From: an uncultured candidatus Porisulfidus sp.
GTDB lineage: Bacteria > Pseudomonadota > Gammaproteobacteria > Poriferisulfidales > Poriferisulfidaceae
DNA: 64,000 bases
Direction: 5' to 3'
Assembly: GCA_965204575.1 (NCBI GenBank)
Contig: OZ241993.1
Span: forward strand, 901,850 to 965,849
How positions within the stretch are numbered: position 1 is the first letter of the stretch; the number at the start of each line of letters is the position of its first letter. This document shows, piece by piece, positions 1 to 56,546 of this stretch. The notes beneath the pieces are model-generated. The model had not been told where the DNA came from. It saw only the letters and a list, made by a program, of their open reading frames with translations, and searched no databases. The translations under genes were made by a program, and so were the position numbers.

Positions 1-1
1 T

Positions 2-397
2 CTTGTTGAGCTCAAAGCAATTGATGTAAGAGAGATATGTAACAGTGTAGATCCTGAATGTTACTTGTTGCCTTGTAGATCAGGTGGGATGGATCAACTA
101 CAAAAGCCTGTATATTTCTTGGACGAGCGTCCCAAGCAACGCAAAAACTGGGTTTTAATAGGATGTGAAAGAAGTCTTCAATTTCATCGACACTATTATG
201 GAGATGAGCCACCCCAGGTTGAGATGTGTCCACGCAAGCTTCGACAAGAATCTGAAGTGCCTACACTATTGAAGTGTTGTCTACTTGAATTCGAGGTTGA
301 AAGAGATGGGGACCTGATGGTTGTTCCCTGGGGTGCTGATCTCACTATGGTAGAACAAGCTTTACGGGAAATTTCGAGTGAGGTTGAGTATGTCTAA
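2..397 (+). CDS. hypothetical protein, 5'-truncated by the window edge (C-terminal ~130 aa visible); first visible gene of the comA-like operon
   Basis: Frame 2 is open from nt 2 with no stop codon until 397. The track lists only the TTG-initiated tail 65..397. A 20-nt overlap with the next gene start suggests co-transcription. No motif recognised. Confidence 0.35.
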   Translation, partial: LVELKAIDVREICNSVDPECYLLPCRSGGMDQLQKPVYFLDERPKQRKNWVLIGCERSLQFHRHYYGDEPPQVEMCPRKLRQESEVPTLLKCCLLEFEVERDGDLMVVPWGADLTMVEQALREISSEVEYV

Positions 398-1274
398 GTC
401 TGCTTGGGATGGGATTCAAGTCATAAGTGAATTCATGAAAGAGCGTGTAGAGCGGCAAAAAAACGTTGGTATGACGATGGTTATCGATACGTGTATGGGG
501 CCGCAGATGTTGCAGGATATGCTTCTAGTTTCGAATGAGTATATTGATCACTGGAAGTTTAGTTATGGAGTATCTGCCGTGATGCCTGCAAACATACTCC
601 GTCAAATGCTCGATACATTAAATCAATACAACATCAATACATTTCCTGGAGGTACGCTGCTAGAGGCTGCGATCATTCAGAAAAATTGTCAATCGTACAT
701 GCTGCGTGCCAAAGAGATTGGATTCCGTTCAGTCGAAATTTCAGATGGAACGATCACACTGCCCATTAAGCGCAGGCGTAACGCAATCTTGTGTGCGCTA
801 GACAATGGATTGATTCCAATTACAGAGGTAGGTAAAAAGGACCCCACAAAGCAACCAAGCCCTGAAGAACTCGCAGACCTGATTCTGCAAGATTTATATT
901 TTGGTGCTGAGTATGTAATCTTGGATGCAAGAGAATCCGGGCGCGAAATCGGCATATTTGACCAAAATGGAGACTTGAAGCTCGAATTATTTGATAAAAT
1001 CTTATCGTTAGTTGGGCAAAAAAAAGAAAAGGTCATTTGGGAAGCCCCCCTAAGAAAACAACAGGCCGCCCTGATCAAACAAATTGGTCCAAATGTAAAC
1101 CTTGGGAATATAAGCCCCATGGACGTCTTGTCGCTAGAGTCATTACGCTTGGGACTTCAATATGAATCCTTAAGAGAAGTTGCCGACGAGTCTACCCAGC
1201 GTGGAATGTGGGACCCTGATTCAGTAGAAAACTCTGATACAACCGAGATACCGCAAGAATCTGTAAAGAAATGA
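378..1274 (+). CDS. comA: (2R)-phospho-3-sulfolactate synthase (ComA family; XcbB1-like)
   Basis: 298 aa. Contains ComA-family hallmark segments GMTMVIDTCMG ... YIDHWKFSYGVS, matching ComA KGLTMVIDKGLG ... IDFVKFGWGTS. Low-GC codon usage. Stop overlaps the next start (ATGA). Confidence 0.8.
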   Translation: MRLSMSKSAWDGIQVISEFMKERVERQKNVGMTMVIDTCMGPQMLQDMLLVSNEYIDHWKFSYGVSAVMPANILRQMLDTLNQYNINTFPGGTLLEAAIIQKNCQSYMLRAKEIGFRSVEISDGTITLPIKRRRNAILCALDNGLIPITEVGKKDPTKQPSPEELADLILQDLYFGAEYVILDARESGREIGIFDQNGDLKLELFDKILSLVGQKKEKVIWEAPLRKQQAALIKQIGPNVNLGNISPMDVLSLESLRLGLQYESLREVADESTQRGMWDPDSVENSDTTEIPQESVKK

Positions 1275-2788
1275 GTGACAGATTTTCAGACTCCGATGCT
1301 GTTTTGTGTACCAATGGCCGGTTATCACAGCCTCCCGAAGATATATTAGTTACCAGTGCTTTTAAGAGTGAGCTTCAAGAACAGCTCTGCTTGTCAGAAG
1401 AAATGAATCGGGTGGATATTGCACATGTAATAGGATTAGTTGAGGCCAAGGTTATCAAGAAGAAAGTAGGCGCTGACCTGTTGAATGCATTGCAAAAATT
1501 ACAGGAGAATCCAACGGATTTCCAACCTGACCCTAAATTCGGTGATTTATTTACAAATCGAGAAAATTGGTTAGAACAACACTCAAGCGCAGTAGGCTGG
1601 TTATGTGCAGGCAGAGCGCGTAGAGAAAGCACTACGGTCGCTTATCATTTAACAATAAAAAAGATTTTGCTTGACCTTGCTGATGAAATAACAGCCTTGA
1701 TGCGGGTAATGATGATACAGGTGTCGGCGCATAAGGCATCAGTTATGCCGGATTACACGTATATGCAGCCGGGACAGCCAACGACATTCGGGCATTATTT
1801 ACATTCATTTGTATTCATGCTGATGCGTGATCTTGCGCGCATTGAATCACTTTATGGAAGGGTCAATTGTTGTCCAGCAGGGTGCGGAGGCATAAACGGG
1901 TCAACTCTTCAGATTGACAGGGAAAAGCTGTCAAGCTTGTTAGGCTTTGCGAGGCCTGTCATGCATGCAAGAGATGCAATGTGGCAAGCTGATACTTCCA
2001 TTGAGATCGCGTCAGTTTCAACTTCAATTTTAGTTACGCTGGACCGCTTTTGCGAAGATGTACTGTATTTCGTGACGGAAGAATTCAACTACATCGAGTT
2101 GCAAGATTCTTGTTCACGAGCAAGTAAGATTATGCCGCAGAAAAAAAATCCTTATGCTTTAGCGTATATTCGAGCGCTGGCAAATAAGGTTATTGGCATA
2201 CAGAATATGGTGGTTGTGTCGCAGCGCACACCAACTGGACAGATTGATAATCGCCTGTTCTTGTACGGAGAAATTCCATTCGTGCTTAAGAAAAGCATCG
2301 AAGGAATTGGCTTGTTAAAAAATGCGGTGGAGGGATTGCAGTTCAAAACTTCAAATGCAGTAAACAGAATAAGGGAAAGCTACGCGATGGCCGCGGAACT
2401 AGCTGAACAAATTTCAGTTGAAAATGATTTGGATTATAGAACCGCCCATAAGATTGTTGGAAAAATTGTCCGAAATTTTATACACCTTAAAAAACCTTTA
2501 TTCGAGTTAACGGAACAAGAATTGAATGAAGCTGCAAGCGATGTAGTAGGTCGCCCAATTTCATGCTCCAGGCAGATCCTCGAGATGCTGAATTCTCCGC
2601 ATGTTGCAATTGAGAAAAAGTCCGGGTTAGGAGGCACGTCTAGAGAAAGGATCAAGGAGATGATCGAATACAGTAAACAAGAGATTAATTTTTATAAAAA
2701 ATGGACAGACAATGAACGGGAAAAAATAAAACAAGCAGAAAATGCATTGTCACAACACATGCATACCATTATCAGTCAAGCCCAATGA
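1271..2788 (+). CDS. aspartase/fumarase-superfamily lyase, argininosuccinate-lyase-like (candidate XcbC1/XcbD1-type CoM biosynthesis enzyme)
   Basis: 505 aa. Lyase-1 signature SKIMPQKKNPYALAYIRA matches the fumarate-lyase GSxxMxxKxN motif as in ArgH. Translationally coupled on both sides. Confidence 0.75.
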   Translation: MSDRFSDSDAVLCTNGRLSQPPEDILVTSAFKSELQEQLCLSEEMNRVDIAHVIGLVEAKVIKKKVGADLLNALQKLQENPTDFQPDPKFGDLFTNRENWLEQHSSAVGWLCAGRARRESTTVAYHLTIKKILLDLADEITALMRVMMIQVSAHKASVMPDYTYMQPGQPTTFGHYLHSFVFMLMRDLARIESLYGRVNCCPAGCGGINGSTLQIDREKLSSLLGFARPVMHARDAMWQADTSIEIASVSTSILVTLDRFCEDVLYFVTEEFNYIELQDSCSRASKIMPQKKNPYALAYIRALANKVIGIQNMVVVSQRTPTGQIDNRLFLYGEIPFVLKKSIEGIGLLKNAVEGLQFKTSNAVNRIRESYAMAAELAEQISVENDLDYRTAHKIVGKIVRNFIHLKKPLFELTEQELNEAASDVVGRPISCSRQILEMLNSPHVAIEKKSGLGGTSRERIKEMIEYSKQEINFYKKWTDNEREKIKQAENALSQHMHTIISQAQ

Positions 2789-4137
2789 CTTCATTATTCG
2801 TAGAATCCTCTATATACCAGAATTCCTGGAGTACGGAATCCTTGCGAAAAATTTTTGATGAGAAATCAAGAATCAGAACTTGGCTAGAAATATTGGCCGT
2901 CCTAGCAGAAGTCCAGTCAAAATTTGGGTTAATACCAAAATCAGCTGGAAATTCAATTAGGGAATTTTGCAGTCAAGTTGAGATCGATAGTGAATTACTT
3001 AATGACATCAAAGAAGGGTTTGAACAAAGTGGCCATTCCATGCAGGGCTTTATCAATGCTTTGGCAAAGCGTGGAGGCGAAGATGTAAAAAACTGGTTGT
3101 ATTTTGGCGCGACTGTACAAGATGTAACAGATACCTGGTTTTCGATCGCTTTGAGGGATGTCAGGGAACAGTTTTTGTTGGATATAAATGCAATATGTTC
3201 TATTACCAAAAATCTCATGAGCGAGCATCGCGACACGATCATGCCAGGGCGTACGCATGGACAACACGGGTTGCCTATAACATTTGGATTTAAGGTTGCG
3301 GGTTGGGCGTGTGAACTGGATCGTCATCGAACTCGGTTATCGCAATTGGGTAACCGAATGGACGAGGGGCAGTTATGTGGAGGCGTTGGATCACTTTCAT
3401 CGTTAGGCCGCCACGGTCTAGAAATTCAAAAGGAATTTTGTAATCGCCTCGGATTACGCGACCCCATTATCTCTTGGATTTCAAGTCGGGATGTATTTGC
3501 AGAATGGGGCCAGTTATTAGTGCTGATAACTGGAACTGCAGATCGTATCGGTCATGAAATTTATAATTTGCAAAGGACAGAAATTGCAGAACTTATTGAG
3601 ATTACGCCTATAGAAACCGTAGGCAGTATTACGATGCCGCATAAACAAAACCCAGAAATATCCGAACATCTGGGAACGCTTGCCAGAGTCGTTCGCCATA
3701 ATGCTGCAATTCTTCTTGAGGGCTTAGTCACTGATCATGAACGAGATGGTCGATCTTGGAAAAGTGAATGGCATGTCCTGCCGCTCATAACTTTAGTATC
3801 GGGAAAATCTCTAGAGTTACTGAAATTAATATTGTCAAACTTAGAAGTACAAACACTGAAAATGAAAGAGAACTTAGAAATCAGTGGCGAACAGATATTT
3901 TCAGAAGGTGTAATGCTGGCGTTAGCAAAAAAACTGGGGAAAAACCAGGCTCAAAAAATAGTCTACAAGGAAGCAATGAATGCGCGTAAGAAAGGAATTT
4001 CATTCAGAGAGGCTGTTTTGAATAACTCTCAAATTTCATCCAATCTAAGTGCTGAAGATATCGATGAGATTTTTAAAAATGAAAATCGTCTTGGTTTATG
4101 TACAGCGATGGTTGATAGAGTGCTAAACAAAATATGA
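2785..4137 (+). CDS. aspartase/fumarase-superfamily lyase, adenylosuccinate-lyase / 3-carboxymuconate-cycloisomerase-like (candidate XcbD1/XcbC1-type)
   Basis: 450 aa. Signature SITMPHKQNPEISE resembles the PurB/PcaB-type SSxMPHKxNP motif; also TIMPGRTHGQHGLPITFG. ATGA overlaps at both ends. Confidence 0.75.
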   Translation: MTSLFVESSIYQNSWSTESLRKIFDEKSRIRTWLEILAVLAEVQSKFGLIPKSAGNSIREFCSQVEIDSELLNDIKEGFEQSGHSMQGFINALAKRGGEDVKNWLYFGATVQDVTDTWFSIALRDVREQFLLDINAICSITKNLMSEHRDTIMPGRTHGQHGLPITFGFKVAGWACELDRHRTRLSQLGNRMDEGQLCGGVGSLSSLGRHGLEIQKEFCNRLGLRDPIISWISSRDVFAEWGQLLVLITGTADRIGHEIYNLQRTEIAELIEITPIETVGSITMPHKQNPEISEHLGTLARVVRHNAAILLEGLVTDHERDGRSWKSEWHVLPLITLVSGKSLELLKLILSNLEVQTLKMKENLEISGEQIFSEGVMLALAKKLGKNQAQKIVYKEAMNARKKGISFREAVLNNSQISSNLSAEDIDEIFKNENRLGLCTAMVDRVLNKI

Positions 4138-5126
4138 GTACTCAAACACTCGCATCTGATGACTTGCCGAAAATCAGCCGTTGTGAGTTCGCACAATTTC
4201 CCACTCCTTTGCAGCGGTTTAAAAAACTGGAAAAAGATCTCAATGATATTGAGCTATGGGTTAAACGCGATGACCTAATCGAATTTGGTTATGGGGGAAA
4301 TAAAGTCAGGGCACTTGAATACATAGCGGCAGACGCATTAAAGAGGGGGTCGAAAACGTTAATTACGGGTGCAGGTGTACAGTCCAATCATGTACGTGCA
4401 ACGGCAGCAGTGGCAGCTTATTTAGATCTGAATTGTATCGCTATCTACTGGGGCAGCCCCCCAAAAGAAGTTACAGGCAATTATTACCTGACCAAATTGT
4501 TGGGAGCAGAAACCAGATTTACACACGATACTGATCGAAGCTCGGTAGATACAATGATCCGACTTGTTGAGCAAGAACTGATGCATGGTGATGCCCTTCC
4601 TTATTCAATCCCGCGAGGAGGAGCATGTGCACTAGGGGTAATCGCTCACATGTTTGCGGCGAAGGAATTATTTGAGCAGTGCCAAAGCAAAGAAATAAAT
4701 GTCGATCTTGTAACGCTTGCAGTGGGTTCTGGAGGGACTATAGCTGGTTGGGTACTTGCACGAATCTTGTATGACCATCCTTGGCGAATCGAAGGCTTTA
4801 CTGTGAGTCGGCCTGCCAAGGAGTTAAAGGAAATTGTTCATAATTTAGTACAACAAGCCGCCGTAGTATTGAATGTCGCAGTAAACATAAATTTGGAGGA
4901 GATAGTAATCCGTGAGGGCTACATTGGTGATGGATACGGGATACCAAGTATTGAAGGGAATGAAACAATTAAAGATGTTGCAATCAAGCAAGGTGTTTTT
5001 TTTGATCCGACGTATACAGGAAAAGCATTTGCTGGACTTTCAGATTTAATAAATAATGGTTTCTACAAGGACATTCAAACAGCCGTGTTTTTACATACAG
5101 GAGGAGAGCCGGTTTTGTTTAGTTAG
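4134..5126 (+). CDS. PLP-dependent D-cysteine desulfhydrase / ACC-deaminase family enzyme (XcbE1-like)
   Basis: 330 aa. TPLQRF ... VKRDDL ... GGNKVRALEYI ... GxQSNHVRATAAVAA matches the ACC deaminase/DcyD family; the PLP lysine context is conserved. Confidence 0.8.
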   Translation: MSTQTLASDDLPKISRCEFAQFPTPLQRFKKLEKDLNDIELWVKRDDLIEFGYGGNKVRALEYIAADALKRGSKTLITGAGVQSNHVRATAAVAAYLDLNCIAIYWGSPPKEVTGNYYLTKLLGAETRFTHDTDRSSVDTMIRLVEQELMHGDALPYSIPRGGACALGVIAHMFAAKELFEQCQSKEINVDLVTLAVGSGGTIAGWVLARILYDHPWRIEGFTVSRPAKELKEIVHNLVQQAAVVLNVAVNINLEEIVIREGYIGDGYGIPSIEGNETIKDVAIKQGVFFDPTYTGKAFAGLSDLINNGFYKDIQTAVFLHTGGEPVLFS

Positions 5127-5140
5127 TATAGGGTCAACAA

Positions 5141-6586
5141 ATGACAGAAGTTAAAACTACAACTATTCCTGATTTGCAAACAAGTGCAATGTCGACGGAT
5201 AGCGATGAACGCGAAATTTTAAAATTGGTGGAGAATGCCAGATTTGCACAATTGCAAGTAAATTCCTATACGCAAGAACAAGTAGATGAATTAGTGACAT
5301 CAATTGCCTGGAGCGTTATCAAAAATAGAGAAGAATTGGCACGCATGGCTGTTGATGAGGGTGAGTTTGGAAATTACGCTGATAAAGTAACAAAGATTTA
5401 CAATCGCGTAATAGGAACATTGGCGGATATGCGTTCAGTCAAGACTGTTGGTGTAGTTGAAGAGGACCCTGAGACCGGAATAACAAAGCTCGCTAAACCC
5501 GTGGGTGTAATTGGTGCACTTATTCCGGCAACAGGTCCTGATGCAACGCCGCCCGTCAAGGCATTAGGCGCGATTAAAGCAAGAAACGCGTTGATCATAG
5601 CGCCACACCCAAGGACAAAAAGAAGTTCAGCTAGAGTAGTCGAATGCATACGAGAAGGTTGTACTCGCGTTGGTGCCCCTGAAGACCTGGCACAAGTGAT
5701 AACCAGCCCTTCAATTCAAAAGACAAAAGTGCTAATGGAAAATGTAGATCTCATCGTGGCAACGGGGGGCATGAGTATGGTGAAAGCCGCATACAGCTCA
5801 GGGAAACCTGCATATGGAGTAGGTGTAGGGAATGCGGTACATATAGTGGATGAAACCGCAGACCTCAACGATGCCGCTGATATGATTGCAAAGGCAAAGA
5901 CATTTGATTTTGCAACAAGCTGCTTGGCGGATAACGCCATAGTAGTTCATCAAGATATCTACAAAGTACTAGTAAACAAGTTGATAGAACTTGGTGGTTA
6001 TTTATGTAATAAAGCAGATAAAAATAGCCTTGAAAAAGTTATGTGGCCAAAAGATGCCCATATCCCATCTCCTGAAATCATCGCGAAATCTGCAGAGTCA
6101 ATTGCGAAGAAGGCACAAATTGATATTCAGCCTGGCAAAAGCTTTCTGTTAGTAGAAGAAACCGGAATTGGAGAAGGCCATCCGTTCTCTGGAGAAAAAC
6201 TGTCCGTTGTTTTAGCCGTCTATCAATATTCGGGTAAAATCGAAAATGCGGTAGATGTCGTAAATAGAATTACGAATTATCAGGGCTTGGGACATACATG
6301 CGGAATACATTCACAATCTGAAGCAAACATCAACTATGTTGCCCTAAATACAAAAACAGCAAGAGTCATCGTGAATCAAAATCTTAATGAAGGAGCAGGC
6401 AGCCCCAGAAACGGATTGCCCTATACATTGTCACTTTCCTGTGGGACATGGGGAGGGAACATCACAACCGAAAATGTCAATGTTAGAAACTTTATGAATG
6501 TGACCTGGGTTTCACGTCCAGTACGTCCTCGTGCGTTTAACGAAGAGGAGCTGTTTGAAAATTATTGGAACAAATATGGCAAGTAA
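5141..6586 (+). CDS. CoA-acylating aldehyde dehydrogenase (EutE/PduP/SucD-like ALDH)
   Basis: 481 aa. Related to acylating ALDHs (DLIVATGGMSMVKAAYSSGKPAYGVGVGN ... ADNAIVV). No typical NAD-ALDH Glu/Cys decapeptide. SD-like GGAG upstream. Confidence 0.65.
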   Translation: MTEVKTTTIPDLQTSAMSTDSDEREILKLVENARFAQLQVNSYTQEQVDELVTSIAWSVIKNREELARMAVDEGEFGNYADKVTKIYNRVIGTLADMRSVKTVGVVEEDPETGITKLAKPVGVIGALIPATGPDATPPVKALGAIKARNALIIAPHPRTKRSSARVVECIREGCTRVGAPEDLAQVITSPSIQKTKVLMENVDLIVATGGMSMVKAAYSSGKPAYGVGVGNAVHIVDETADLNDAADMIAKAKTFDFATSCLADNAIVVHQDIYKVLVNKLIELGGYLCNKADKNSLEKVMWPKDAHIPSPEIIAKSAESIAKKAQIDIQPGKSFLLVEETGIGEGHPFSGEKLSVVLAVYQYSGKIENAVDVVNRITNYQGLGHTCGIHSQSEANINYVALNTKTARVIVNQNLNEGAGSPRNGLPYTLSLSCGTWGGNITTENVNVRNFMNVTWVSRPVRPRAFNEEELFENYWNKYGK

Positions 6587-6621
6587 GAATCAGTTATTGA
6601 GATTTTCTCGGCTATACATGG

Positions 6622-8136
6622 GTGCATGACATGAAACATTATGAGTTAGGGACTGTAGAAGACCTAAAAAATTCTACCCGATTAAAACAAGAGGGTTTTG
6701 ATGAAAATTTTTTAAAAGGAAAACGCCCTTCACCGATCGAACCGGTACAAAATGTTATGGATTTGGCCGATGATATTAACAGCAAGAAATATGATGCCGT
6801 AATTGTTGGAAGTGGCCCGGGAGGATCAGCTGTTGCAAGAGAACTGGCAAGGGCAGGAAAAAAAGTAGTCGTACTGGAGTATGGGAAAGATCATCGAGGT
6901 AAATGGTATTACGGAACTGTCGCAGGACCTTTTCTCTACACCGAAAAACGTGGCTTTTTAAAATCTAAGGAAGGGGTAACAATTGTCCGCCCGATGCTTA
7001 CTGGGGGGGCAACCAACATGTTTGCAAGTGCTGCTTCAGGCCCTCCATCTTGGTGGTTTGATAAAACGGGTGTGGATATAGAGTCTGAAGTTAACGAAAC
7101 CATTGATGAGCTTCGGATTGAGGCGTTACCTGAAGAACTCACTGGCGCTGCATCACAACGTATTGGAGAAGCAGGCAGAGATCTAGGCATGGACTGGGTG
7201 CCCCAAACAAAATTCATTCATCCAAAGCGGTGTTACTCTGAATTAGATTGCGGTGATAAATGCATGTTTGGTTGTCGATGTGGAGGCAAGTGGACTGCAA
7301 ATGAATATTTGGATCAAGCTATTGAGGCCGGTGCGTCCGTTATTACCGAGTGTAACGTTCATAATGTTGAGATTGAAGATGGCGTAGCAACCGGGGTATA
7401 TGCTGAAGTACACGGGGAAAGATTCAGACTGAATGGCCAGGTCGTTATTGTTTGTGCTGGAGGAATTGGCACACCTAGAATTTTACAAAATTCAGGCATT
7501 CATAATGCTGGAGATGCACTGGGTGTAGACACTACATTTGTTGTATATGGTGTCATCAAAGAGAAAGGAAATACTGGTGATCCACCTATGACGATCAGCT
7601 ATTGTGACGATGAGAATGGTTTGATGTATTCGACACTCACTCAGCCATTTGGGCTATTTGCGCTTACTCAATATTACAAAGGTTGGAGGCATTTAAAGAA
7701 AGTGCCCAAGTTTCCGCGTATGCTAGGAATTATGGTTAAGATAAAAGAGGGCCTTAAAGGCTATGTGGCACCGGATGGACAGATCAGTATGCCTTTGTTG
7801 CATGATGATTTCCTCCGGGCAAACATTGGGTTCAGTACTAGCAAAAGTATTCTTATGAAAGCGGGATGTGATCCAAATACTATTTTTTGGAACCCCCCAA
7901 GAGGAACACATCCATGCGCAACAGTGCGTATAGGTGATCACTTGGATTCCGATCTAAAAACTCTTGCATTTGATAACTTATATGTCTCGGATGCGAGCAC
8001 TTTCCCATTACCCCTGGTACGTCCTCCGACACTTACAATTATTGGGCAAAGCAAGAGGTTGGCAAAGCATCTTATTGAAACCAAACTCAAAGACACTCAA
8101 ATTCAGAAAGAGGAAAATATGGCATTGGCACAATAG
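6622..8136 (+). CDS. GMC-family FAD-dependent oxidoreductase
   Basis: 504 aa. N-terminal FAD fold DAVIVGSGPGGSAVARELARAGKKVVVLEYG. Its length and C-terminal region fit GMC oxidoreductases. Confidence 0.7.
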   Translation: MHDMKHYELGTVEDLKNSTRLKQEGFDENFLKGKRPSPIEPVQNVMDLADDINSKKYDAVIVGSGPGGSAVARELARAGKKVVVLEYGKDHRGKWYYGTVAGPFLYTEKRGFLKSKEGVTIVRPMLTGGATNMFASAASGPPSWWFDKTGVDIESEVNETIDELRIEALPEELTGAASQRIGEAGRDLGMDWVPQTKFIHPKRCYSELDCGDKCMFGCRCGGKWTANEYLDQAIEAGASVITECNVHNVEIEDGVATGVYAEVHGERFRLNGQVVIVCAGGIGTPRILQNSGIHNAGDALGVDTTFVVYGVIKEKGNTGDPPMTISYCDDENGLMYSTLTQPFGLFALTQYYKGWRHLKKVPKFPRMLGIMVKIKEGLKGYVAPDGQISMPLLHDDFLRANIGFSTSKSILMKAGCDPNTIFWNPPRGTHPCATVRIGDHLDSDLKTLAFDNLYVSDASTFPLPLVRPPTLTIIGQSKRLAKHLIETKLKDTQIQKEENMALAQ

Positions 8137-8183
8137 AAAATGCATGCAATTTTTTGTGCATTAAATAATTTACAAAAAGAAAA

Positions 8184-8846
8184 TTGGAAGAACTAGAATT
8201 AATCAGCTTAAAACTATGTCCTTTTGTACAAAGGGCGGTGATAGTTTTAAATCACAAAAACATAAATTATAAAATCACTCATGTGGACTTGGAGAATCCA
8301 CCAGGCTGGTTTAATAAAATCTCACCATTAAAGAAAGTTCCGCTTCTAAAGATAGGTGAAAAAGATGTCCTGTTTGAATCAGCGGTTATCTGTGAATACA
8401 TAGATGATGTTACACCAATCAAGTTACGGCCAGAAAACCCGCTCCAATTGGCATACAATCGTGCATGGATTGAATTTGGATCTACATGCCTTGTAGATCA
8501 GTATTTGCTGCTTTTAAAAAAAACAGAGAAAGAGTTTAAAGAGCAAGCTGATCAAATCATCAGTAAACTACATTTAGTAGAGAATACTTTGAATAATCAG
8601 CCATTTTTTAATGGCGAACAATTCTCGCTTGTAGATGCCGCATATGCTCCATTACTGATACGATATGAAATCATAAATAATATTATTCCAATATTTAATT
8701 CTCAGAGCTTTGAAAAGCTTTCAAACTGGTCAGATACGATTCTTGGATCAAGCGCTGTACAAGAATCAATAGAATCAGATTTCCTCACCCAGTATAAAGA
8801 CAAAATTGCAGGTTTCGACGGATACTTGTCATCCCATATTAGCTAA
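8184..8846 (+). CDS. glutathione S-transferase-like protein (thioredoxin-fold N-domain)
   Basis: 220 aa. N-terminal GST-like fold LCPFVQRA ... KVPLL ... ESAVICEYI, followed by a helical C-domain. Confidence 0.55.
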   Translation: MEELELISLKLCPFVQRAVIVLNHKNINYKITHVDLENPPGWFNKISPLKKVPLLKIGEKDVLFESAVICEYIDDVTPIKLRPENPLQLAYNRAWIEFGSTCLVDQYLLLLKKTEKEFKEQADQIISKLHLVENTLNNQPFFNGEQFSLVDAAYAPLLIRYEIINNIIPIFNSQSFEKLSNWSDTILGSSAVQESIESDFLTQYKDKIAGFDGYLSSHIS

Positions 8847-8886
8847 AGATTAGCTAGAAAAACTCTACTCTAAAAAACTTTCTTTT

Positions 8887-10026
8887 GTGAATTTACTTGC
8901 ATCCAGATCTGCAGTTTGTGCTGCATTGATATTGGCCATAGGAATGGGTTTTGGACGTTTTTGTTTTACAGGCATTTTCCCTGTAATGGCTGATGAAGGA
9001 TCGTTGACACTAGATGGGGGCGCCTATGTGGCATCTGCAAACTACGCAGGATATTTGCTTGGTGCATTGTTAGCTATTAATACGCACCCTAATGACTCGT
9101 TTAAGCTGTGTCTTTATTCGATTTTAGGTACCGCATTGACAATTGCGTTTTTGGCTGTGTACCAGAGCGTGTGGTTTTTGATTGTCATGCGTGGCCTTTC
9201 AGGTGTATTCAGCGCCACTGCAATGGTTGGCGCCTCATCATGGTTATTGCAGTACAAAGGGGATCATCGTGCTTCGCCAATTTTATACGCAGGTATTGGG
9301 TTTGGAATTTTAATTTCGGCAGAAATCATCGCTATAGGTCAGCACTTTGGATTTGGTAGTGCGGAATTATGGTTCTTGCTAGGCGGAGCGGGTTTGCTAA
9401 TTGGGATACCTTGTATTTGGCTGATGAAAATGGATTCAGCGGGAAAGACCGTAGACCAAATCTATACAGGCATTCACAGTGCAGAAGTATTTGACAAGTG
9501 GAAACTAGTTTTAATTTATGGGTTAGCAGGGTTTGGTTATATCATTACCGCCACTTACCTTCCCTTGATAATCAAAAATGACTTGGGCATTGGAATCGGT
9601 ATCCACATATGGGCAGTGTTTGGATTAGGAGCGATGTTCTCATGTTTTTTTTGGCATGGGGTTCAAGCTAAACTGGGCTCAAGAAATTCGTTATTTGTTA
9701 ATTTAATTATCCAATCGATCGGTGTAGCGCTTCCAGTATTCAGTCAAACATTATCCAGTTATTTGTGCAGTGCACTCTTGGTTGGTGGCACATTTATGGG
9801 ATTTGTTACTATTGCTAAATCAATAGCACTGCAAATATCTCATGAAGCACGAGGTAACCTCATGGCAATCATGACTACTTCGTTTGGAATAGGCCAGATT
9901 GCGGGTCCGCTGGTTGCCAACGAGACCTATGATGTGAGCAAATCGTTTTCTTTGTCTTTTCTCATGGCAAGTATGGCGCTAATTATTGCAGCCGTAATCT
10001 CTTTAAAAGCTAACAGGAAAATTTGA
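8887..10026 (+). CDS. MFS-type membrane transporter (YbfB/YjiJ-like)
   Basis: 379 aa, about 12 predicted TM helices. Conserved N-terminal FGRFCFTGIFPVM segment typical of YbfB/YjiJ. GTG start as in the track. Confidence 0.55.
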   Translation: MNLLASRSAVCAALILAIGMGFGRFCFTGIFPVMADEGSLTLDGGAYVASANYAGYLLGALLAINTHPNDSFKLCLYSILGTALTIAFLAVYQSVWFLIVMRGLSGVFSATAMVGASSWLLQYKGDHRASPILYAGIGFGILISAEIIAIGQHFGFGSAELWFLLGGAGLLIGIPCIWLMKMDSAGKTVDQIYTGIHSAEVFDKWKLVLIYGLAGFGYIITATYLPLIIKNDLGIGIGIHIWAVFGLGAMFSCFFWHGVQAKLGSRNSLFVNLIIQSIGVALPVFSQTLSSYLCSALLVGGTFMGFVTIAKSIALQISHEARGNLMAIMTTSFGIGQIAGPLVANETYDVSKSFSLSFLMASMALIIAAVISLKANRKI

Positions 10027-10097
10027 TTAATCTGCATAGCGATAACCGACAAGCCTCTGGGTATGTACAGATCCTATGTGAAATTGGACAGTTCAAA

Positions 10098-10183
10098 TGG
10101 TGCCGATGGCCGGACTCGAACCGGCACGGCTTTCGCCACTGCCCCCTCAAGACAGCGTGTCTACCAGATTCCACCACATCGGC
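10098..10183 (-). tRNA. leuU: tRNA-Leu (anticodon GAG), class II, 86 nt including CCA
   Basis: Reverse complement is GCCGATGTGGTGGAATCTGGTAGACACGCTGTCTTGAGGGGGCAGTGGCGAAAGCCGTGCCGGTTCGAGTCCGGCCATCGGCACCA. 7-bp acceptor stem, anticodon loop TTGAGGG, long variable arm. Sits directly downstream of secG, as leuU does in E. coli. Coordinates ±1-2 nt. Confidence 0.85.
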
Positions 10184-10218
10184 ACTGCCTGCAGTATTAT
10201 CACAAAACGCGCCAAATC

Positions 10219-10587
10219 CTACTCAGGAATTTCTCCGGCTGGGCCCAATTCCGGTTCGAATTCCGAAATAACCGGCTGTTCCGGGATGCCGGGTTCGGGA
10301 AGGGCCTGCTCGGCTTCCGGTACGGCAATTTGCCCCATGAGGCTCTGTTCGGGTGGTGCGGTTTTGACGATCCACGCCAGCGCTAGGCAGTTGATGAAAA
10401 ACAGGGCAACGATGACGGCGGTGATCCGACTGAGAAAGGTTGCGCTTCCGCGTGCGCCGAAAACAGAACCGGAGGCGCCGCCGCCGAATGCTGCGCCGGT
10501 ATCCGCGCCCCGGCCGTGCTGCAGCAGCACCAGGCCGATGATGCTCAGCGACAGCAGGATCGCGGTGATGAGGAGGACGGTGTACAT
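10219..10587 (-). CDS. secG: preprotein translocase subunit SecG
   Basis: 122 aa. MYTVLLI ... LLQHGRGADTGAAFGGGASGSVFG is the SecG signature. Confidence 0.9.
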   Translation of the reverse strand: MYTVLLITAILLSLSIIGLVLLQHGRGADTGAAFGGGASGSVFGARGSATFLSRITAVIVALFFINCLALAWIVKTAPPEQSLMGQIAVPEAEQALPEPGIPEQPVISEFEPELGPAGEIPE

Positions 10588-10591
10588 CTGC

Positions 10592-11365
10592 CTATTTTCG
10601 CACGGCCTGGCAAATGGACAGGAATTCGTCGGCCTTCAGGGAAGCGCCGCCGACCAGGCCGCCGTCGATATCTGGCATGGAGAACAATTCCGACGCATTG
10701 GCTGCCTTGACGCTGCCGCCGTACAGCACGACCGTGTCCTGCGCAGCGGTTCCGAGCTTCTGCTCCAAGTGCGCCCGGATGGCGGCGTGCACTTCCTGCG
10801 CCATGTCTGGGGTGGCCGCGACTCCAGTGCCGATGGCCCAGACCGGCTCGTAGGCGATCAGCGCGCGCGGGAATGCGTCCGGGAAGCTTCGGACCGGCTG
10901 CAGTTGCCGGTGGATCACGTCCAGGGTCTGTCCCGCCTCGCGCTCCTCCAGGGTTTCTCCGACGCACAGGATCGCCCGGGGTGCGCCCGGGGTGTCTTGT
11001 TGCGCCGACTGGTGCAGGAGGGCGAACTTCTGCTCGATCAACTCGTCGGATTCGCCGTACACGTGACGGCGCTCGGAATGGCCGATGATGGCGTGCGAGC
11101 AGCCCAGTTCGGCCAGCATGGCCACGGAGACTTCGCCGGTGAAGGCGCCCTCGGGTTGGTCGCAGACGTTCTGCGCGCCGATCTGGACCGGGCTTTCCGT
11201 AGTCTCTTCCAGGACGTCAAGCAGGTGGACGAACGGAGGGCAGAGCAGGACTTCCGGAGCGGTCGCATCCCCGACCCCCTGTGCGACGGCACGGGCCAAC
11301 GCCCGGGCGGTGTCCCGGGAGCCATGCATTTTCCAGTTGCCGGCGACGACGGTCGGTCGAGCCAT
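10592..11365 (-). CDS. tpiA: triosephosphate isomerase
   Basis: 257 aa. N-terminal VAGNWKMHG and IGHSERR motifs. Confidence 0.9.
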   Translation of the reverse strand: MARPTVVAGNWKMHGSRDTARALARAVAQGVGDATAPEVLLCPPFVHLLDVLEETTESPVQIGAQNVCDQPEGAFTGEVSVAMLAELGCSHAIIGHSERRHVYGESDELIEQKFALLHQSAQQDTPGAPRAILCVGETLEEREAGQTLDVIHRQLQPVRSFPDAFPRALIAYEPVWAIGTGVAATPDMAQEVHAAIRAHLEQKLGTAAQDTVVLYGGSVKAANASELFSMPDIDGGLVGGASLKADEFLSICQAVRK

Positions 11366-11423
11366 GAAAGGGATCCGGTGGTTATCGGGGGGTAATGCGG
11401 TGGGGCATTATAAAGGGCGGTTC

Positions 11424-12755
11424 TCAGGCACCCGTGTCGATCGAGTTGGCGATAGATTGCGCGAGGGCTTCGACCCTTCCGTGATCTTCTCCCTCCACCA
11501 TGACACGCAACACCGGCTCTGTCCCGGAGGGGCGCAGGAGAACCCGACCTTGCTCGCCCAGTTCATTGCGCGCACTCTGCACGGCCGCATCCGTGGCCGG
11601 GCCGGGCGTACGGTCGCGTGGGCAACGCACATTGATCATGGTCTGTGGATACTTCCGCAGGTCCGAACGCGCCTGGCACAGGGGCTGGCCGAGAATATGC
11701 AGCGCTTCCAGTGTCTGTAGCGCCGCAACCATCGCGTCGCCGGTGCAGGCCCGGTCGCGGCAGATGATGTGGCCGGAGGTCTCTCCGCCGAGTTGCCAGT
11801 CGCGGGCCAGCAGTAATTCCTGGACATAGCGGTCGCCGACCGCAGCCCGCTCGAACGGGATTTCCAGGGCGGCCAGTGCTTTCTCCAGGCCCAGGTTGCT
11901 CATCTGGGTGCCGGCCACGCCGCCGTTCAGGGTGCCCTGAATCTGCCGGGCGCGGGCAATGACATACAAGAGATCGTCCCCGTCCGCGATTTCGCCGTCT
12001 TCGTCGATCATGATCAGCCGGTCGCCGTCGCCGTCCACGGCTAGCCCGAGAGTGGCACGGTGTTCACGGGTTTGGGCGCGGACATATTCCGGGCAGGTCG
12101 CACCACAACCATCGTTGATGTTCGTCCCGTCAGGCTCCACGCCGACGGTAGCCACGTCTGCGCCTAGTTCCTCGAACAGTTTCGACGCAAGCTGGTAAGC
12201 GGCTCCGTGCGCGCAGTCGACCAGCAGGCACAAGCCGTCGAGGCGGAACCCCTCGGGCACGGTGCCCTTGCAGAAATCAAGGTAGCGGCGCCCGGCGTCA
12301 TTGATTCGGCGGGCCTTGCCGGGCAGCGACCGGGGGTCGATGTCCATCGGCTGCTCAAGTTCCGCTTCGATGCGATGCTCGATCTCATCGGGCAGTTTGG
12401 CGCCGTCCGCGTCGAACAGCTTGATGCCGTTGTCGTAGTGCGGGTTGTGCGAGGCGCTGATGACGATGCCGGCGCAGGCATCCAGTTCCCGGGTCAGTTG
12501 GGCGATGGCGGGAGTCGGCTGGGGGCCCAGCAGCAGGACATTGACGCCGGCCGCGGATAAACCGGCCTCCAGCGCAGACTCGAACATGTAGCCGGAACGG
12601 CGGGTGTCCTTGCCGATCAGGATCTGGGGGAATTCGGACTCGCGCCCGAGTACGCGCCCGATGGCCCAGCCCAGGCGCAGCACGAAGTCCGGCGTCATCG
12701 GGCTGACTCCAACCCGGCCCCGGATTCCGTCAGTTCCGAAATAGGTGCGGGACAT
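11424..12755 (-). CDS. glmM: phosphoglucosamine mutase
   Basis: 443 aa. YFGTDGIRG start and the phosphoserine loop SASHNP. Confidence 0.9.
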   Translation of the reverse strand: MSRTYFGTDGIRGRVGVSPMTPDFVLRLGWAIGRVLGRESEFPQILIGKDTRRSGYMFESALEAGLSAAGVNVLLLGPQPTPAIAQLTRELDACAGIVISASHNPHYDNGIKLFDADGAKLPDEIEHRIEAELEQPMDIDPRSLPGKARRINDAGRRYLDFCKGTVPEGFRLDGLCLLVDCAHGAAYQLASKLFEELGADVATVGVEPDGTNINDGCGATCPEYVRAQTREHRATLGLAVDGDGDRLIMIDEDGEIADGDDLLYVIARARQIQGTLNGGVAGTQMSNLGLEKALAALEIPFERAAVGDRYVQELLLARDWQLGGETSGHIICRDRACTGDAMVAALQTLEALHILGQPLCQARSDLRKYPQTMINVRCPRDRTPGPATDAAVQSARNELGEQGRVLLRPSGTEPVLRVMVEGEDHGRVEALAQSIANSIDTGA

Positions 12756-12777
12756 GCGCGGTCGGCCGCGACTGGAA

Positions 12778-14703
<1,926 letters not shown>

Positions 14704-14952
14704 GCGCGCTTTTCCCGGAAACCTTGGCCTTTCAGCATACTAGGATAGCAGATGGCGCGGGGACCGCGGGCGCATTCTGCTCCTGTAACGAGATATGGGG
14801 GAGCAGGCGGGGATTTCCAAGCCAAGACTAGGAGCGTTGCTCTCGAATGAGGTGCAACGACGATACGTGTCATTTCTAGCAACTGAAACATTATTTTCGG
14901 TACTTAACCAGTTTTGTGCATGTAATGAAAGTAAACGGAACATAGTTTGGTA

Positions 14953-55068: not shown

Positions 55069-55129
55069 CACGGGCAGCCACAGCCTGCGCCCGGCCTGAA
55101 CAAGTCTGCGCAGACGGACGGACAGGTCA

Positions 55130-56221: not shown

Positions 56222-56261
56222 TGTAAAATGCCTTTCGGCTCACTGACCTGAGGAGAAAACG

Positions 56262-56486: not shown

Positions 56487-56546
56487 TCCCGCTTCACTGC
56501 AGTTTTTCTGACAAGCCCGCCGCCAAGAACGGCGGGCGCCCCGCCG

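What the first reader, a model, noticed from the sequence alone, without database searches (positions are those of the whole stretch)
1..5126. Complete bacterial-type coenzyme M biosynthesis gene set on a low-GC island in a high-GC genome
Five tightly coupled genes: a 20-nt overlap at 378/397, then ATGA overlaps at 1271, 2785 and 4134. Downstream of a window-truncated unknown gene they encode a ComA-family phosphosulfolactate synthase, two different aspartase/fumarase-superfamily lyases (argininosuccinate-lyase-like SKIMPQKKNP and adenylosuccinate-lyase-like SITMPHKQNP) and a PLP D-cysteine-desulfhydrase/ACC-deaminase-family enzyme. This exact enzyme combination is the XcbB1/XcbC1/XcbD1/XcbE1 route (PEP + sulfite to phosphosulfolactate to sulfoacrylate to Cys adduct to CoM) established in Xanthobacter autotrophicus Py2. 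Outside methanogens, CoM is rare and is tied to alkene/epoxide or vinyl chloride metabolism. Here it sits in a gammaproteobacterial core context with no alkene monooxygenase, epoxyalkane:CoM transferase or 2-KPCC in the window. Which lyase plays the C1 role and which the D1 role cannot be decided by eye.
Basis: partly seen in the sequence, partly recalled or inferred. Interest (0 to 1): 0.85.

Follow-up and report, generated by a model that had tools for sequence, protein, structure and literature searches.

The report
Coenzyme M/epoxide island in sponge symbiont
The genes do encode the bacterial coenzyme M pathway, but in every close relative they sit beside the usual epoxide-capturing enzyme just beyond the window's edge, so this is a known kind of epoxide-handling island, seen here in a sponge-associated sulfur bacterium.

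Summary
Window 1-5126 encodes the C-terminal third of XcbA, then XcbB (ComA), XcbC, XcbD and XcbE, in the same order as in Xanthobacter autotrophicus Py2 and translationally coupled. The ArgH-like lyase is XcbC and the ADSL-like lyase is XcbD.

- **Operon length.** The operon continues to 10026 with a CoA-acylating aldehyde dehydrogenase, an FAD/Fe-S-type GMC dehydrogenase, an omega-like GST and an MFS_4 transporter. It ends against the 3' end of tRNA-Leu(GAG).
- **The apparent oddity is an artefact.** The window starts about 5.2 kb inside a ~15 kb island. All 15 close relatives (75-98% nt identity) carry an EtnE/XecA epoxyalkane:CoM transferase (65% identical to the Py2 enzyme) and a two-subunit CoA-transferase immediately upstream of xcbA.
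- **Host.** It is a Candidatus Porisulfidus-like sponge-associated sulfur oxidiser.
- **Island properties.** It has about 43% GC against about 63% in the host. All genes are under purifying selection. It is better conserved than the flanking core genes and sits at other sites in related lineages.

Verdict: a mobile CoM-dependent epoxide detoxification or assimilation island, a variant of a known kind. A GMC dehydrogenase replaces the usual SDR, and no monooxygenase was found nearby. Interest is moderate.

The parts
2..397 (+). C-terminal 132 codons of xcbA (DUF7714; [2Fe-2S] sulfoethanethioaldehyde reductase, last CoM step). The gene runs off the left edge of the window.
   Evidence: The frame is open from base 2. 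NF052538 XcbA family scores 194 bits against a cutoff of 150, and PF24830 scores 122 bits. The fragment is 97-99% identical to the C-terminus of the full-length 314-aa XcbA in L004 and L008. The five cysteines invariant between Py2, JS614 and the island clade all lie in this fragment.
390..1274 (+). xcbB / comA, phosphosulfolactate synthase (PEP + sulfite). An alternative GTG start lies at 378.
   Evidence: PF02679 scores 263 bits. TIGR03849 scores 288.3 bits against a cutoff of 280. It is 47% identical to Py2 Xaut_5052. A GAGG Shine-Dalgarno precedes ATG390.
1271..2788 (+). xcbC, the ArgH-like aspartase/fumarase-superfamily enzyme that eliminates phosphate from phosphosulfolactate to give sulfoacrylate.
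   Evidence: NF052535 scores 568.6 bits (cutoff 575); the XcbD model scores only 43. It is 40% identical to Py2 Xaut_5053. The signature loop SRASKIMPQKKNPYAL is conserved.
2785..4137 (+). xcbD, the ADSL-like 3-sulfopropionylcysteine synthase (adds Cys to sulfoacrylate).
   Evidence: NF052536 scores 621.1 bits against a cutoff of 600. It is 52% identical to Py2 Xaut_5054.
4134..5126 (+). xcbE, the PLP enzyme of the D-cysteine desulfhydrase family that yields sulfoethanethioaldehyde.
   Evidence: NF052537 scores 444.3 bits (cutoff 450), against 265 for CuyA and 157-200 for ACC deaminase. It is 51% identical to Py2 Xaut_5055. The PLP-lysine motif GGNK57VR is conserved.
5141..6586 (+). CoA-acylating aldehyde dehydrogenase (SauS-like). 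Inferred role: 2-oxoethyl-CoM to its CoA thioester.
   Evidence: NF047625 SauS scores 500 bits, below its cutoff of 600. The closest solved structures are acylating aldehyde dehydrogenases and AdhE N-terminal domains. It is 61% identical to the ALDH of the Nocardioides JS614 ethene cluster. It is conserved in L001-L015.
6622..8136 (+). GMC-family FAD dehydrogenase with a Cys-rich Fe-S-type motif. Inferred role: 2-hydroxyalkyl-CoM dehydrogenase replacing the SDR of known clusters.
   Evidence: It hits PF00732 and PF05199. It aligns to the Cys-rich stretch of FAD-GDH 6a2u_B, which is 3Fe-4S-binding from my own knowledge. DCGxKCMxGCRC and RGTHP are invariant in the family. The best fold matches are the fructose dehydrogenase and FAD-GDH catalytic subunits. 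Homologues at 50-64% identity lie outside CoM clusters.
8184..8846 (+). Omega-class-like glutathione S-transferase with a CPF active-site cysteine motif. It is an accessory gene of the island.
   Evidence: It has GST_N and GST_C domains. The best solved relatives are GST omega-1 and thiol-dependent reductase. It is present in L004-L009, L012 and L014, reduced to remnants in L001, L003 and L010, and absent from L002, L011, L013, L015 and L016. Homologues at 45-58% identity are widespread in sulfur-oxidising gammaproteobacteria.
8887..10026 (+). MFS_4 (YbfB-type) transporter, the last gene of the operon.
   Evidence: PF06779 scores 249 bits. It is conserved at this position in 10 related loci.
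10098..10183 (-). tRNA-Leu(GAG), whose 3' end abuts the island. It marks the right boundary and likely integration site.
   Evidence: ARAGORN. The same junction occurs in L004 and L006-L008. The GC step lies at about 10090.
10097..10120 (.). att-like core: the 3'-terminal 23-24 nt of tRNA-Leu. An imperfect direct copy of it lies at the island's far (left) edge in related genomes, outside this window.
   Evidence: Local alignments match 20-22 of 23-24 positions at the GC transition in L004, L006, L007 and L008, and 18 of 19 over a shorter 20-column alignment in L014. Scores are 30-38, against a shuffle mean of 23 and maximum of 34.

Best explanation
Window 1-10090 is the right-hand two-thirds of a ~15 kb horizontally acquired island in a Candidatus Porisulfidus-like sponge symbiont. 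The island is one operon that both makes coenzyme M and uses it to capture and catabolise a small epoxide, most likely epoxyethane.

**Shown by homology to characterised enzymes.** XcbB, XcbC, XcbD, XcbE and XcbA convert PEP and sulfite to CoM, via phosphosulfolactate, sulfoacrylate, 3-sulfopropionylcysteine and sulfoethanethioaldehyde.

**Shown in all close relatives, inferred for this genome.** Just left of the window lie an EtnE/XecA epoxyalkane:CoM transferase, which opens the epoxide with CoM, and a two-subunit CoA-transferase. Most relatives also have a dihydrolipoamide-dehydrogenase-like disulfide oxidoreductase there.

**Inferred from family and neighbourhood only.**
- The GMC FAD/Fe-S dehydrogenase oxidises 2-hydroxyethyl-CoM to 2-oxoethyl-CoM, taking the place of the NAD-dependent SDR of known clusters.
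- The acylating aldehyde dehydrogenase converts that aldehyde to the CoA thioester.
- The thioether is then cleaved reductively to acetyl-CoA plus CoM. The disulfide oxidoreductase, and possibly the omega-type GST, would carry out that step.
- The MFS protein moves a sulfonate or conjugate across the membrane.

No monooxygenase is nearby. As proposed for methanotrophs, the island probably deals with epoxide made elsewhere, by another enzyme of the cell or by neighbours in the sponge, rather than supporting growth on alkenes.
For: **Family scores and identities.**
- Dedicated XcbA, XcbC, XcbD and XcbE models plus ComA are the best hits.
- Identity to Py2 XcbA-E is 40-68%, in identical order.
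- Catalytic motifs are conserved.
- The pathway chemistry comes from Wu et al. 2022 (PMC9457059).

**Full operon seen in relatives.**
- The gene order is [DLDH-like]-EtnE-CoAT_A-CoAT_B-XcbABCDE-ALDH-GMC-[GST]-[MFS].
- EtnE is present in 16 of 16 loci and ALDH/GMC in 15 of 15 close loci.
- EtnE is 65% identical to Py2 '2-hydroxypropyl-CoM lyase' and 45-47% to the EtnE of ethene degraders. Identity then drops to 31% for generic MetE-like proteins.
- The H-x-C...C zinc motif is conserved.

**Similarity to ethene-type clusters.**
- The CoA-transferase subunits are 48% and 45% identical, and the ALDH 61% identical, to the Nocardioides JS614 ethene cluster.
- Methanotroph etnE clusters without a monooxygenase contain the same classes of genes and respond to ethylene (PMC11507031).

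**Operon and selection.**
- Genes are co-directional with gaps of 47 nt or less, and there is no excess of promoter- or terminator-like sites.
- dN/dS is 0.05-0.18 for all nine genes in the comparisons with dS of roughly 0.2-1.

**Island status.**
- There is a GC step and an adjacent tRNA-Leu.
- An att-like repeat lies at the far edge.
- In a sister lineage the island sits next to tRNA-Gly/Thr instead.
- Island identity is 97.2-97.5% against 87-92% for the flank.
Against: - The window's own genome was not seen left of base 1, so EtnE and the CoA-transferase are inferred from relatives that are 94-98% identical, not observed.
- XcbC (568.6 against 575) and XcbE (444.3 against 450) fall just under NCBIfam's curated cutoffs.
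- No step after EtnE has been shown biochemically in any organism for the ethene-type route. The roles given to the GMC, ALDH, DLDH-like and GST proteins rest on family and neighbourhood alone.
- The GMC structural model is only moderate (pLDDT 68) and its Cys-rich loop has low confidence.
- Toppings et al. assign the SauS-like ALDH to CoM biosynthesis rather than to catabolism.
- No epoxide source was identified. There is no monooxygenase in the 64 kb window or within 10 kb of the island in relatives.
- The SDR, ADP-forming acyl-CoA ligase and 2-KPCC of known clusters are absent.
Confidence: 0.8

Rival explanations
1. Stand-alone CoM biosynthesis. The organism makes CoM for a purpose unrelated to epoxides, for example as a general low-molecular-weight thiol, a sulfonate osmolyte precursor or an export product for the sponge consortium. 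The downstream GST and MFS genes would use or export it.
For: No EtnE, 2-KPCC or monooxygenase lies in the 64 kb window. A GST and a transporter sit at the end of the operon.
Against: EtnE lies two genes upstream of xcbA in all 16 related loci, including five Porisulfidus-type loci whose island is 96.5-98% nt identical to the window's. The GST and MFS genes are the least conserved parts of the island and have been lost or degraded in several lineages. The host also carries ordinary glutathione genes, a GST and GloB.
Confidence: 0.07
2. The ALDH, and perhaps the GMC enzyme, belongs to CoM biosynthesis rather than to epoxide catabolism. It could be an alternative or additional terminal redox step acting on sulfoacetaldehyde or sulfoethanethioaldehyde, as Toppings et al. 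suggested for the 'sulfoacetaldehyde dehydrogenase' of methanotroph clusters.
For: The best NCBIfam hit is SauS, the acylating sulfoacetaldehyde dehydrogenase, at 500 bits. The gene directly follows xcbE with a 14-nt gap. Toppings et al. list it as the fifth CoM enzyme where XcbA is missing.
Against: Here and in JS614, XcbA and the ALDH coexist, so the ALDH is not simply replacing XcbA. Py2 makes CoM in vitro with XcbA-E alone and has no such ALDH in its cluster. The ALDH occurs in ethene-type clusters, where the hydroxyalkyl-CoM is a primary alcohol and an aldehyde intermediate is expected. It does not occur in the propene-type Py2 cluster. This last point is my inference from the known pathways.
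Confidence: 0.15
3. The genes serve sulfolactate, cysteate or sulfoacetaldehyde catabolism or generic amino-acid metabolism (ComA with ComB/ComC-like partners, CuyA, ArgH/PurB paralogues), not CoM synthesis.
For: ComA also acts in sulfolactate metabolism. The XcbE protein hits CuyA at 265 bits. The lyases hit ArgH at 258 bits and PurB at 268 bits. The ALDH hits SauS.
Against: Each protein scores 180-310 bits higher on the Xcb-specific model than on any alternative. No ComB, ComC, Xsc or Pta is present. Gene order is identical to the characterised Py2 xcb operon, XcbA included.
Confidence: 0.03

Closest known systems
xcbABCDE operon of Xanthobacter autotrophicus Py2 (megaplasmid pXAUT01, Xaut_5051-5055; Wu et al. 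2022, PMC9457059)
   Same: The same five genes occur in the same order with overlapping stops and starts. Identity is 40-68%. The signature loop, the PLP lysine and five XcbA cysteines are conserved, and an EaCoMT gene lies upstream in the same cluster.
   Different: Py2 pairs the operon with 2-KPCC and two SDRs of the propene route and has an alkene monooxygenase. It has no CoA-transferase, acylating ALDH, GMC, GST or MFS gene in the cluster. Py2 carries the cluster on a megaplasmid; here it is a chromosomal island next to a tRNA.
Ethene/vinyl-chloride etnE-CoM clusters of Nocardioides sp. JS614 and Mycolicibacterium (plasmid-borne)
   Same: They share EtnE, the two CoA-transferase subunits (48% and 45% identity), an acylating ALDH (61%), an XcbA-like protein and the ComA, XcbC, XcbD and XcbE homologues.
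   Different: Those clusters have etnABCD monooxygenase genes, an SDR, an ADP-forming acyl-CoA ligase and a different FAD oxidoreductase. None of them has a GMC dehydrogenase. Gene order differs, and the hosts are actinobacteria.
etnE/CoM clusters without an alkene monooxygenase in aerobic methanotrophs (Methylohalobius crimeensis; Toppings et al. 2024, PMC11507031)
   Same: The cluster sits on a genomic island and has no dedicated alkene monooxygenase. It contains EtnE, a CoA-transferase pair, CoM synthesis genes, a SauS-like ALDH and an E3-like oxidoreductase, and a detoxification role has been proposed.
   Different: M. crimeensis has pMMO as an obvious internal epoxide source, uses an SDR, has a MEDS regulator and lacks XcbA. 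The Porisulfidus island has XcbA, a GMC dehydrogenase, a GST and an MFS transporter, with no regulator and no known epoxide source.
FAD/3Fe-4S catalytic subunits of membrane-bound fructose dehydrogenase (Gluconobacter) and FAD glucose dehydrogenase (Burkholderia cepacia)
   Same: They are the best fold matches of the island's GMC protein (TM 0.60-0.66). The Cys-rich motif aligns with the cluster-binding stretch.
   Different: Sequence identity is only 16-19%. No cytochrome or small 'hitchhiker' subunit gene lies next to the island's GMC gene. The substrate is surely different. The Fe-S cluster is inferred, not shown.

Membership tests
Bacterial CoM biosynthesis (Xcb pathway) | ComA-family phosphosulfolactate synthase (XcbB) | tested here: met
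   TIGR03849 scores 288.3 bits against a cutoff of 280 and PF02679 scores 263 bits. It is 47% identical to Py2 XcbB.
Bacterial CoM biosynthesis (Xcb pathway) | XcbC-type aspartase/fumarase-superfamily phosphate-eliminating lyase | tested here: inconclusive
   NF052535 is by far the best hit, at 568.6 bits against 258 for ArgH, but it falls 6 bits below the curated cutoff of 575. Identity to Py2 is 40% and the signature loop is conserved.
Bacterial CoM biosynthesis (Xcb pathway) | XcbD-type 3-sulfopropionylcysteine synthase | tested here: met
   NF052536 scores 621.1 bits against a cutoff of 600. It is 52% identical to Py2.
Bacterial CoM biosynthesis (Xcb pathway) | XcbE-type PLP enzyme, distinct from CuyA, D-cysteine desulfhydrase and ACC deaminase | tested here: inconclusive
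   NF052537 is the best hit at 444.3 bits, 6 bits below the cutoff of 450. CuyA scores 265 and ACC deaminases 157-200. The PLP lysine is conserved and identity to Py2 is 51%.
Bacterial CoM biosynthesis (Xcb pathway) | XcbA (DUF7714) terminal reductase | tested here: met
   The fragment scores 194 bits against a cutoff of 150. The full-length protein in L008 scores 451 bits. Five invariant cysteines lie in the window fragment. The N-terminal two-thirds lie outside the window.
Bacterial CoM biosynthesis (Xcb pathway) | Actual production of 2-mercaptoethanesulfonate | not testable with these tools
   This needs LC-MS of cells or a reconstituted pathway.
EtnE/XecA-linked epoxide:CoM catabolic cluster | Epoxyalkane:CoM transferase gene (MetE-like, Zn H-x-C...C motif) in the cluster | tested here: inconclusive
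   It is not in the window, which starts inside xcbA. It is present two genes upstream of xcbA in 16 of 16 related loci. It is 65% identical to Py2 XecA and the motif is conserved.
EtnE/XecA-linked epoxide:CoM catabolic cluster | Alkene monooxygenase supplying the epoxide | tested here: not met
   None lies in the 64 kb window or within 10 kb of the island in relatives. The rest of the genome could not be searched. Methanotroph clusters also lack one.
EtnE/XecA-linked epoxide:CoM catabolic cluster | SDR hydroxyalkyl-CoM dehydrogenase(s) and 2-KPCC or an equivalent reductase | tested here: not met
   There is no SDR and no 2-KPCC orthologue. A GMC dehydrogenase and a DLDH-like oxidoreductase (NF004939, 489 bits) occupy the cluster instead.
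EtnE/XecA-linked epoxide:CoM catabolic cluster | Ethene-type accessory genes: two-subunit CoA-transferase and acylating ALDH | tested here: met
   The ALDH lies in the window and is 61% identical to the JS614 enzyme. The CoA-transferase subunits A and B, in relatives, are 48% and 45% identical to those of JS614.
tRNA-associated genomic island | Deviant composition, tRNA at the boundary, flanking direct repeat, integrase | tested here: inconclusive
   GC is 43% against 63%. tRNA-Leu lies at the right boundary. An imperfect 23-24 nt repeat lies at the left edge in relatives, and its score is only modestly above shuffles. The island itself has no integrase. L004 has a separate P4-type integrase module at the same tRNA.
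Sulfolactate/cysteate degradation (ComA with ComB/ComC, CuyA, Xsc) | ComB/ComC or Xsc/Pta partners; PLP enzyme scoring as CuyA | tested here: not met
   No such partners are present. The CuyA model scores 265 bits against a cutoff of 450 and lies 180 bits below the XcbE model.

The most novel reading that the evidence does not exclude
The island is a self-contained route for scavenging epoxides that circulates among sponge symbionts of very different GC content. In this reading it lets a genome-reduced thiotroph with no alkene monooxygenase consume epoxyethane or a similar electrophile made by others in the holobiont, for example through co-oxidation of ethylene by ammonia oxidisers or host oxygenases. 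It would do so with a previously undescribed enzyme set: a respiratory-type FAD/Fe-S GMC dehydrogenase in place of the NAD-dependent SDR, followed by an acylating ALDH, feeding electrons and acetyl-CoA to the cell. That would make CoM-dependent epoxide metabolism a cross-feeding or detoxification trait of animal symbioses.
Probability: 0.3. Interest if true: 0.6.

Novelty: new variant of a known kind. Interest (0 to 1): 0.4.

Why it matters
Bacterial CoM has so far been tied to alkene and vinyl-chloride degraders and, more recently, to some wetland methanotrophs. Here a complete CoM and EtnE operon sits on a mobile island in sponge-associated sulfur oxidisers with genomes of about 1.6-2 Mb. 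It is under purifying selection and better conserved than the neighbouring core genes.

That pattern suggests small epoxides are a real selective pressure or resource inside sponges. It also shows that the pathway's dehydrogenase step can be filled by a different enzyme class, a GMC enzyme instead of an SDR.

For the scan itself, the main lesson is a caution. The apparent orphan status of the CoM genes came from the window boundary.

Tried and rejected
- **Exact-sequence look-up of the window's XcbD.** It is not on record, so the source contig could not be fetched. Relatives were used instead.
- **Taxonomy look-up of 'Porisulfidus'.** No entry exists.
- **Literature searches.** Searches linking etnE, epoxyalkane or CoM biosynthesis with sponges, symbionts or Porisulfidus found nothing relevant. 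This is absence from the held library only.
- **Is the GMC a general marker of CoM clusters?** I checked homologues at 50-64% identity. They lie in unrelated neighbourhoods, so the idea was rejected.
- **Is the GST specific to the island?** It belongs to a family widespread in sulfur-oxidising gammaproteobacteria and is dispensable in several island copies. I treat it as accessory. Its possible role in thioether cleavage remains speculation.
- **Is the DLDH-like protein a 2-KPCC orthologue?** tblastn found no match at E < 1e-8 to the Py2 or JS614 cluster oxidoreductases. NCBIfam calls it a dihydrolipoyl dehydrogenase. Rejected.
- **Promoter and terminator scan of 1-10300.** Hits were fewer than in shuffles. 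This is uninformative beyond being consistent with one operon.
- **Is the 'Nitrospira sp. bin75' copy cross-phylum transfer?** Its left flank is 90-91% identical to Porisulfidus flanks, so it is more likely a binning error.

Full report
**1. Observation**

The ORF table shows co-directional genes at 378-1274, 1271-2788, 2785-4137 and 4134-5126, with ATGA stop/start overlaps at 1271, 2785 and 4134.

Pfam assigns these families:
- ComA
- Lyase_1 with ASL_C2
- Lyase_1 with ADSL_C
- PALP

The composition profile gives 35-44% GC over 1-10000 and 58-71% over most of the rest.

- **The block is longer than reported.** It runs to about 10090, not 5126. It holds four more genes on the same strand, separated by 14-47 nt:
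  - an aldehyde dehydrogenase at 5141-6586
  - a GMC oxidoreductase at 6622-8136
  - a GST at 8184-8846
  - an MFS_4 transporter at 8887-10026
- **The truncated upstream gene is XcbA.** NF052538 scores 194 bits against a cutoff of 150. The frame is open from base 2 to the stop at 395-397.
- **XcbB probably starts at ATG 390.** A GAGG lies 6 nt upstream, and this is the start called in relatives. The overlap is then 8 nt, not 20.
- **No internal signals.** Promoter- and terminator-like sites are no more frequent than in shuffles, which fits a single transcription unit.

**2. Identity of the five proteins**

NCBIfam has dedicated models for this pathway.

| Protein | Best model and score | Curated cutoff | Next best |
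|---|---|---|---|
| ArgH-like lyase | XcbC, 568.6 bits | 575 | ArgH 258; XcbD model 43 |
| ADSL-like lyase | XcbD, 621.1 bits | 600 | other ADSL-family model 393; PurB 268; XcbC model 41 |
| PLP enzyme | XcbE, 444.3 bits | 450 | CuyA 265; ACC deaminases 157-200 |
| ComA | TIGR03849, 288.3 bits | 280 | - |

This settles which lyase is which. The annotated Py2 megaplasmid region gave the reference operon Xaut_5051-5055. Identities to it are 58-68% for XcbA, 47% for XcbB, 40% for XcbC, 52% for XcbD and 51% for XcbE, in the same order.

Conserved catalytic features:
- the XcbC signature loop SRASKIMPQKKNPYAL
- the XcbE PLP-lysine motif GGNKVR
- five XcbA cysteines, all inside the window's 132-residue fragment

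Wu et al. 2022 (PMC9457059) showed in vitro that XcbB, C, D, E and A act in that order. XcbA is a [2Fe-2S] protein that reduces sulfoethanethioaldehyde to CoM. Two scores fall 6 bits under their curated cutoffs, and I record those as inconclusive for strict membership.

**3. What lies beyond the window**

The window's XcbD sequence is not itself on record. A homology search found a tight clade at 73-98% identity, then a drop to 58%.

Contexts of three clade members and a scan of species-representative genomes gave 15 close loci. Window 1-10083 aligns to them at 75-98% nucleotide identity, and window base 1 corresponds to locus coordinate about 7217.

All of them carry the following upstream of xcbA:
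- a 284-aa and a 314-aa CoA-transferase subunit
- a 370-aa Meth_synt_2 protein
- in most, a 449-aa dihydrolipoamide-dehydrogenase-like flavoprotein

The Meth_synt_2 protein is an EtnE/XecA orthologue:
- It is 65% identical to Py2 '2-hydroxypropyl-CoM lyase' (epoxyalkane:CoM transferase).
- It is 47% identical to the Nocardioides JS614 protein and 45% to the Mycolicibacterium chubuense NBB4 protein.
- The next plasmid hits are generic MetE-like proteins at 31%.
- It keeps the H-x-C...C zinc motif.

The window begins about 5.2 kb inside a ~15.3 kb island.

**4. Host and island biology**

The closest loci are titled Candidatus Porisulfidus, including TsSOB from a sponge, or unclassified Gammaproteobacteria MAGs with chromosomes of 1.6-2.8 Mb. 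The window's core flank is 87-92% identical to theirs. That flank holds tRNA-Leu, secG, tpiA, glmM and ftsH.

Evidence that the island is mobile:
- A tRNA-Leu(GAG) on the minus strand at 10098-10183 abuts the island with its 3' end.
- In L004, L006, L007, L008 and L014, an imperfect 23-24 nt copy of that 3' end sits at the opposite edge, at the GC transition. It scores only modestly above shuffles.
- L004 has an additional module, a P4-type integrase plus a SIR2-like gene, at the same tRNA.
- In a sister lineage (L001, L009-L011) the same cassette lies next to tRNA-Gly/Thr instead.
- In L002/L013 it is bracketed by IS3-type transposase fragments.
- Some hosts are themselves low in GC, at 34-45%.
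- Between Porisulfidus genomes the island is 97.2-97.5% identical while the adjacent core is 87-92%. This suggests the island spread after those species diverged.

All nine window genes show dN/dS of about 0.05-0.18 in the comparisons with dS of roughly 0.2-1, so they are maintained by selection.

**5. The downstream genes**

- **ALDH.** It is of the CoA-acylating type. The best NCBIfam hit is SauS at 500 bits, below its cutoff of 600. The closest solved structures are acetylating aldehyde dehydrogenases and AdhE N-terminal domains. It is 61% identical to the ALDH of the JS614 ethene cluster.
- **GMC protein.** It has only weak sequence matches in the PDB. It aligns with the Cys-rich stretch (3Fe-4S-binding, from my own knowledge) of the Burkholderia FAD glucose dehydrogenase catalytic subunit. 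DCGxKCMxGCRC and the catalytic-His motif RGTHP are invariant in its family. A moderate AlphaFold model (pLDDT 68, pTM 0.73) best matches the fructose dehydrogenase and FAD-GDH catalytic subunits. Homologues at 50-64% identity are not in CoM clusters, so this enzyme was recruited into the island.
- **GST.** It is omega-class-like with a CPF cysteine motif. It belongs to a family common in sulfur-oxidising gammaproteobacteria. It is missing or degraded in several island copies.

**6. Mechanism**

Shown by close homology to characterised enzymes: the island synthesises CoM from PEP, sulfite and cysteine.

Strongly inferred: EtnE conjugates CoM to a small epoxide.

Inferred from family and neighbourhood, by comparison of the Py2 propene route with the ethene-type clusters:
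1. The GMC dehydrogenase oxidises the hydroxyalkyl-CoM. Known clusters use an SDR for this step.
2. The acylating ALDH converts the resulting aldehyde to a CoA thioester.
3. The CoA-transferase and the DLDH-like disulfide oxidoreductase, perhaps helped by the GST, release acetyl-CoA and regenerate CoM.

The presence of an aldehyde-specific enzyme and the absence of a carboxylase point to epoxyethane rather than epoxypropane.

The window contains no monooxygenase. It is otherwise housekeeping: folC, accD, trpB, asd, leuBCD, plsX, fabH, uvrC, pnp, glnS and xseA. None lies within 10 kb of the island in relatives either.

This parallels the methanotroph clusters described by Toppings et al. 2024 (PMC11507031). 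There the pathway is thought to detoxify epoxide formed by co-oxidation. The epoxide source here is unknown.

**7. Comparison, novelty and verdict**

The CoM genes are clear members of the Xcb family, which has curated models and existing public annotation. The whole island is a variant of the known EtnE/CoM clusters:
- a GMC dehydrogenase instead of an SDR
- no ADP-forming ligase, 2-KPCC or regulator
- an added GST and MFS transporter
- a new host type, sponge-associated thiotrophs

I found no paper in the held library that connects CoM or EtnE with sponge symbionts.

Its reason for high interest is not. I rate interest as moderate (0.4) and novelty as a new variant of a known kind.

Noticed in passing
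window 14900-17000 (ORFs 14953-15672 on the minus strand and 16172-16789 on the plus strand): A second low-GC patch (about 44% GC) lies between ftsH and a metallophosphoesterase gene. Its two ORFs of 239 and 205 aa have no Pfam hit. It may be another small insertion.
   Followed up: partly
window 23051-24999, minus strand: An AbiEii-like nucleotidyltransferase toxin and an AbiEi-like antitoxin pair (type IV toxin-antitoxin or abortive infection) lie in a 51-54% GC stretch between cvpA/purF and folC.
   Followed up: partly
window 41189-44101, plus strand: A 970-aa ORF in a 54-55% GC region has no Pfam match at all. A Pol-beta-type nucleotidyltransferase ORF lies just upstream at 40066-40674.
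   Followed up: partly
window 1-10090 compared with 10091-14700, against L006, L007 and L008: The island is 97.2-97.5% identical between Porisulfidus genomes, while the adjacent core genes (secG, tpiA, glmM, ftsH) are only 87-92% identical. The island appears to have spread or been exchanged after these species diverged.
   Followed up: partly
L004 17290-20600: In one Porisulfidus chromosome a 3.3 kb module lies between the island and tRNA-Leu. It holds a P4-type tyrosine integrase (408 aa) and a SIR2_2-domain protein (382 aa), so this tRNA is a repeatedly used integration site.
   Followed up: partly
L014 (MPMZ01000015.1, labelled Nitrospira sp. bin75), 1-1250 and 6001-6700: The flank of this 'Nitrospira' contig is 90-91% identical to Porisulfidus flanks, so the contig is probably mis-binned. 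It also has an insert of about 700 bp at 69% GC between the CoA-transferase B gene and xcbA.
   Followed up: partly
L002 / L013 (OZ242168.1), locus 2000-3100 and 15500-17900: In this low-GC gammaproteobacterial MAG the EtnE-to-GMC cassette is bracketed on both sides by IS3-type transposase fragments (HTH_Tnp_1 with rve). That resembles a composite-transposon arrangement, in contrast to the tRNA-site insertion seen here.
   Followed up: no
L085 8596-12971: A 64%-identical GMC homologue outside any CoM cluster sits next to a divergently oriented GST and a phage-type integrase. The window's GST gave no tblastn match to that locus at E <= 1e-3.
   Followed up: partly
window 54415-57317, plus strand: The host carries ordinary glutathione-linked genes: a GST at 54415-55068 and a GloB-type hydroxyacylglutathione hydrolase at 56547-57317. 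They flank a Fer2/FAD/NAD reductase at 55130-56221. CoM would therefore be a second thiol in this cell, not the only one.
   Followed up: partly
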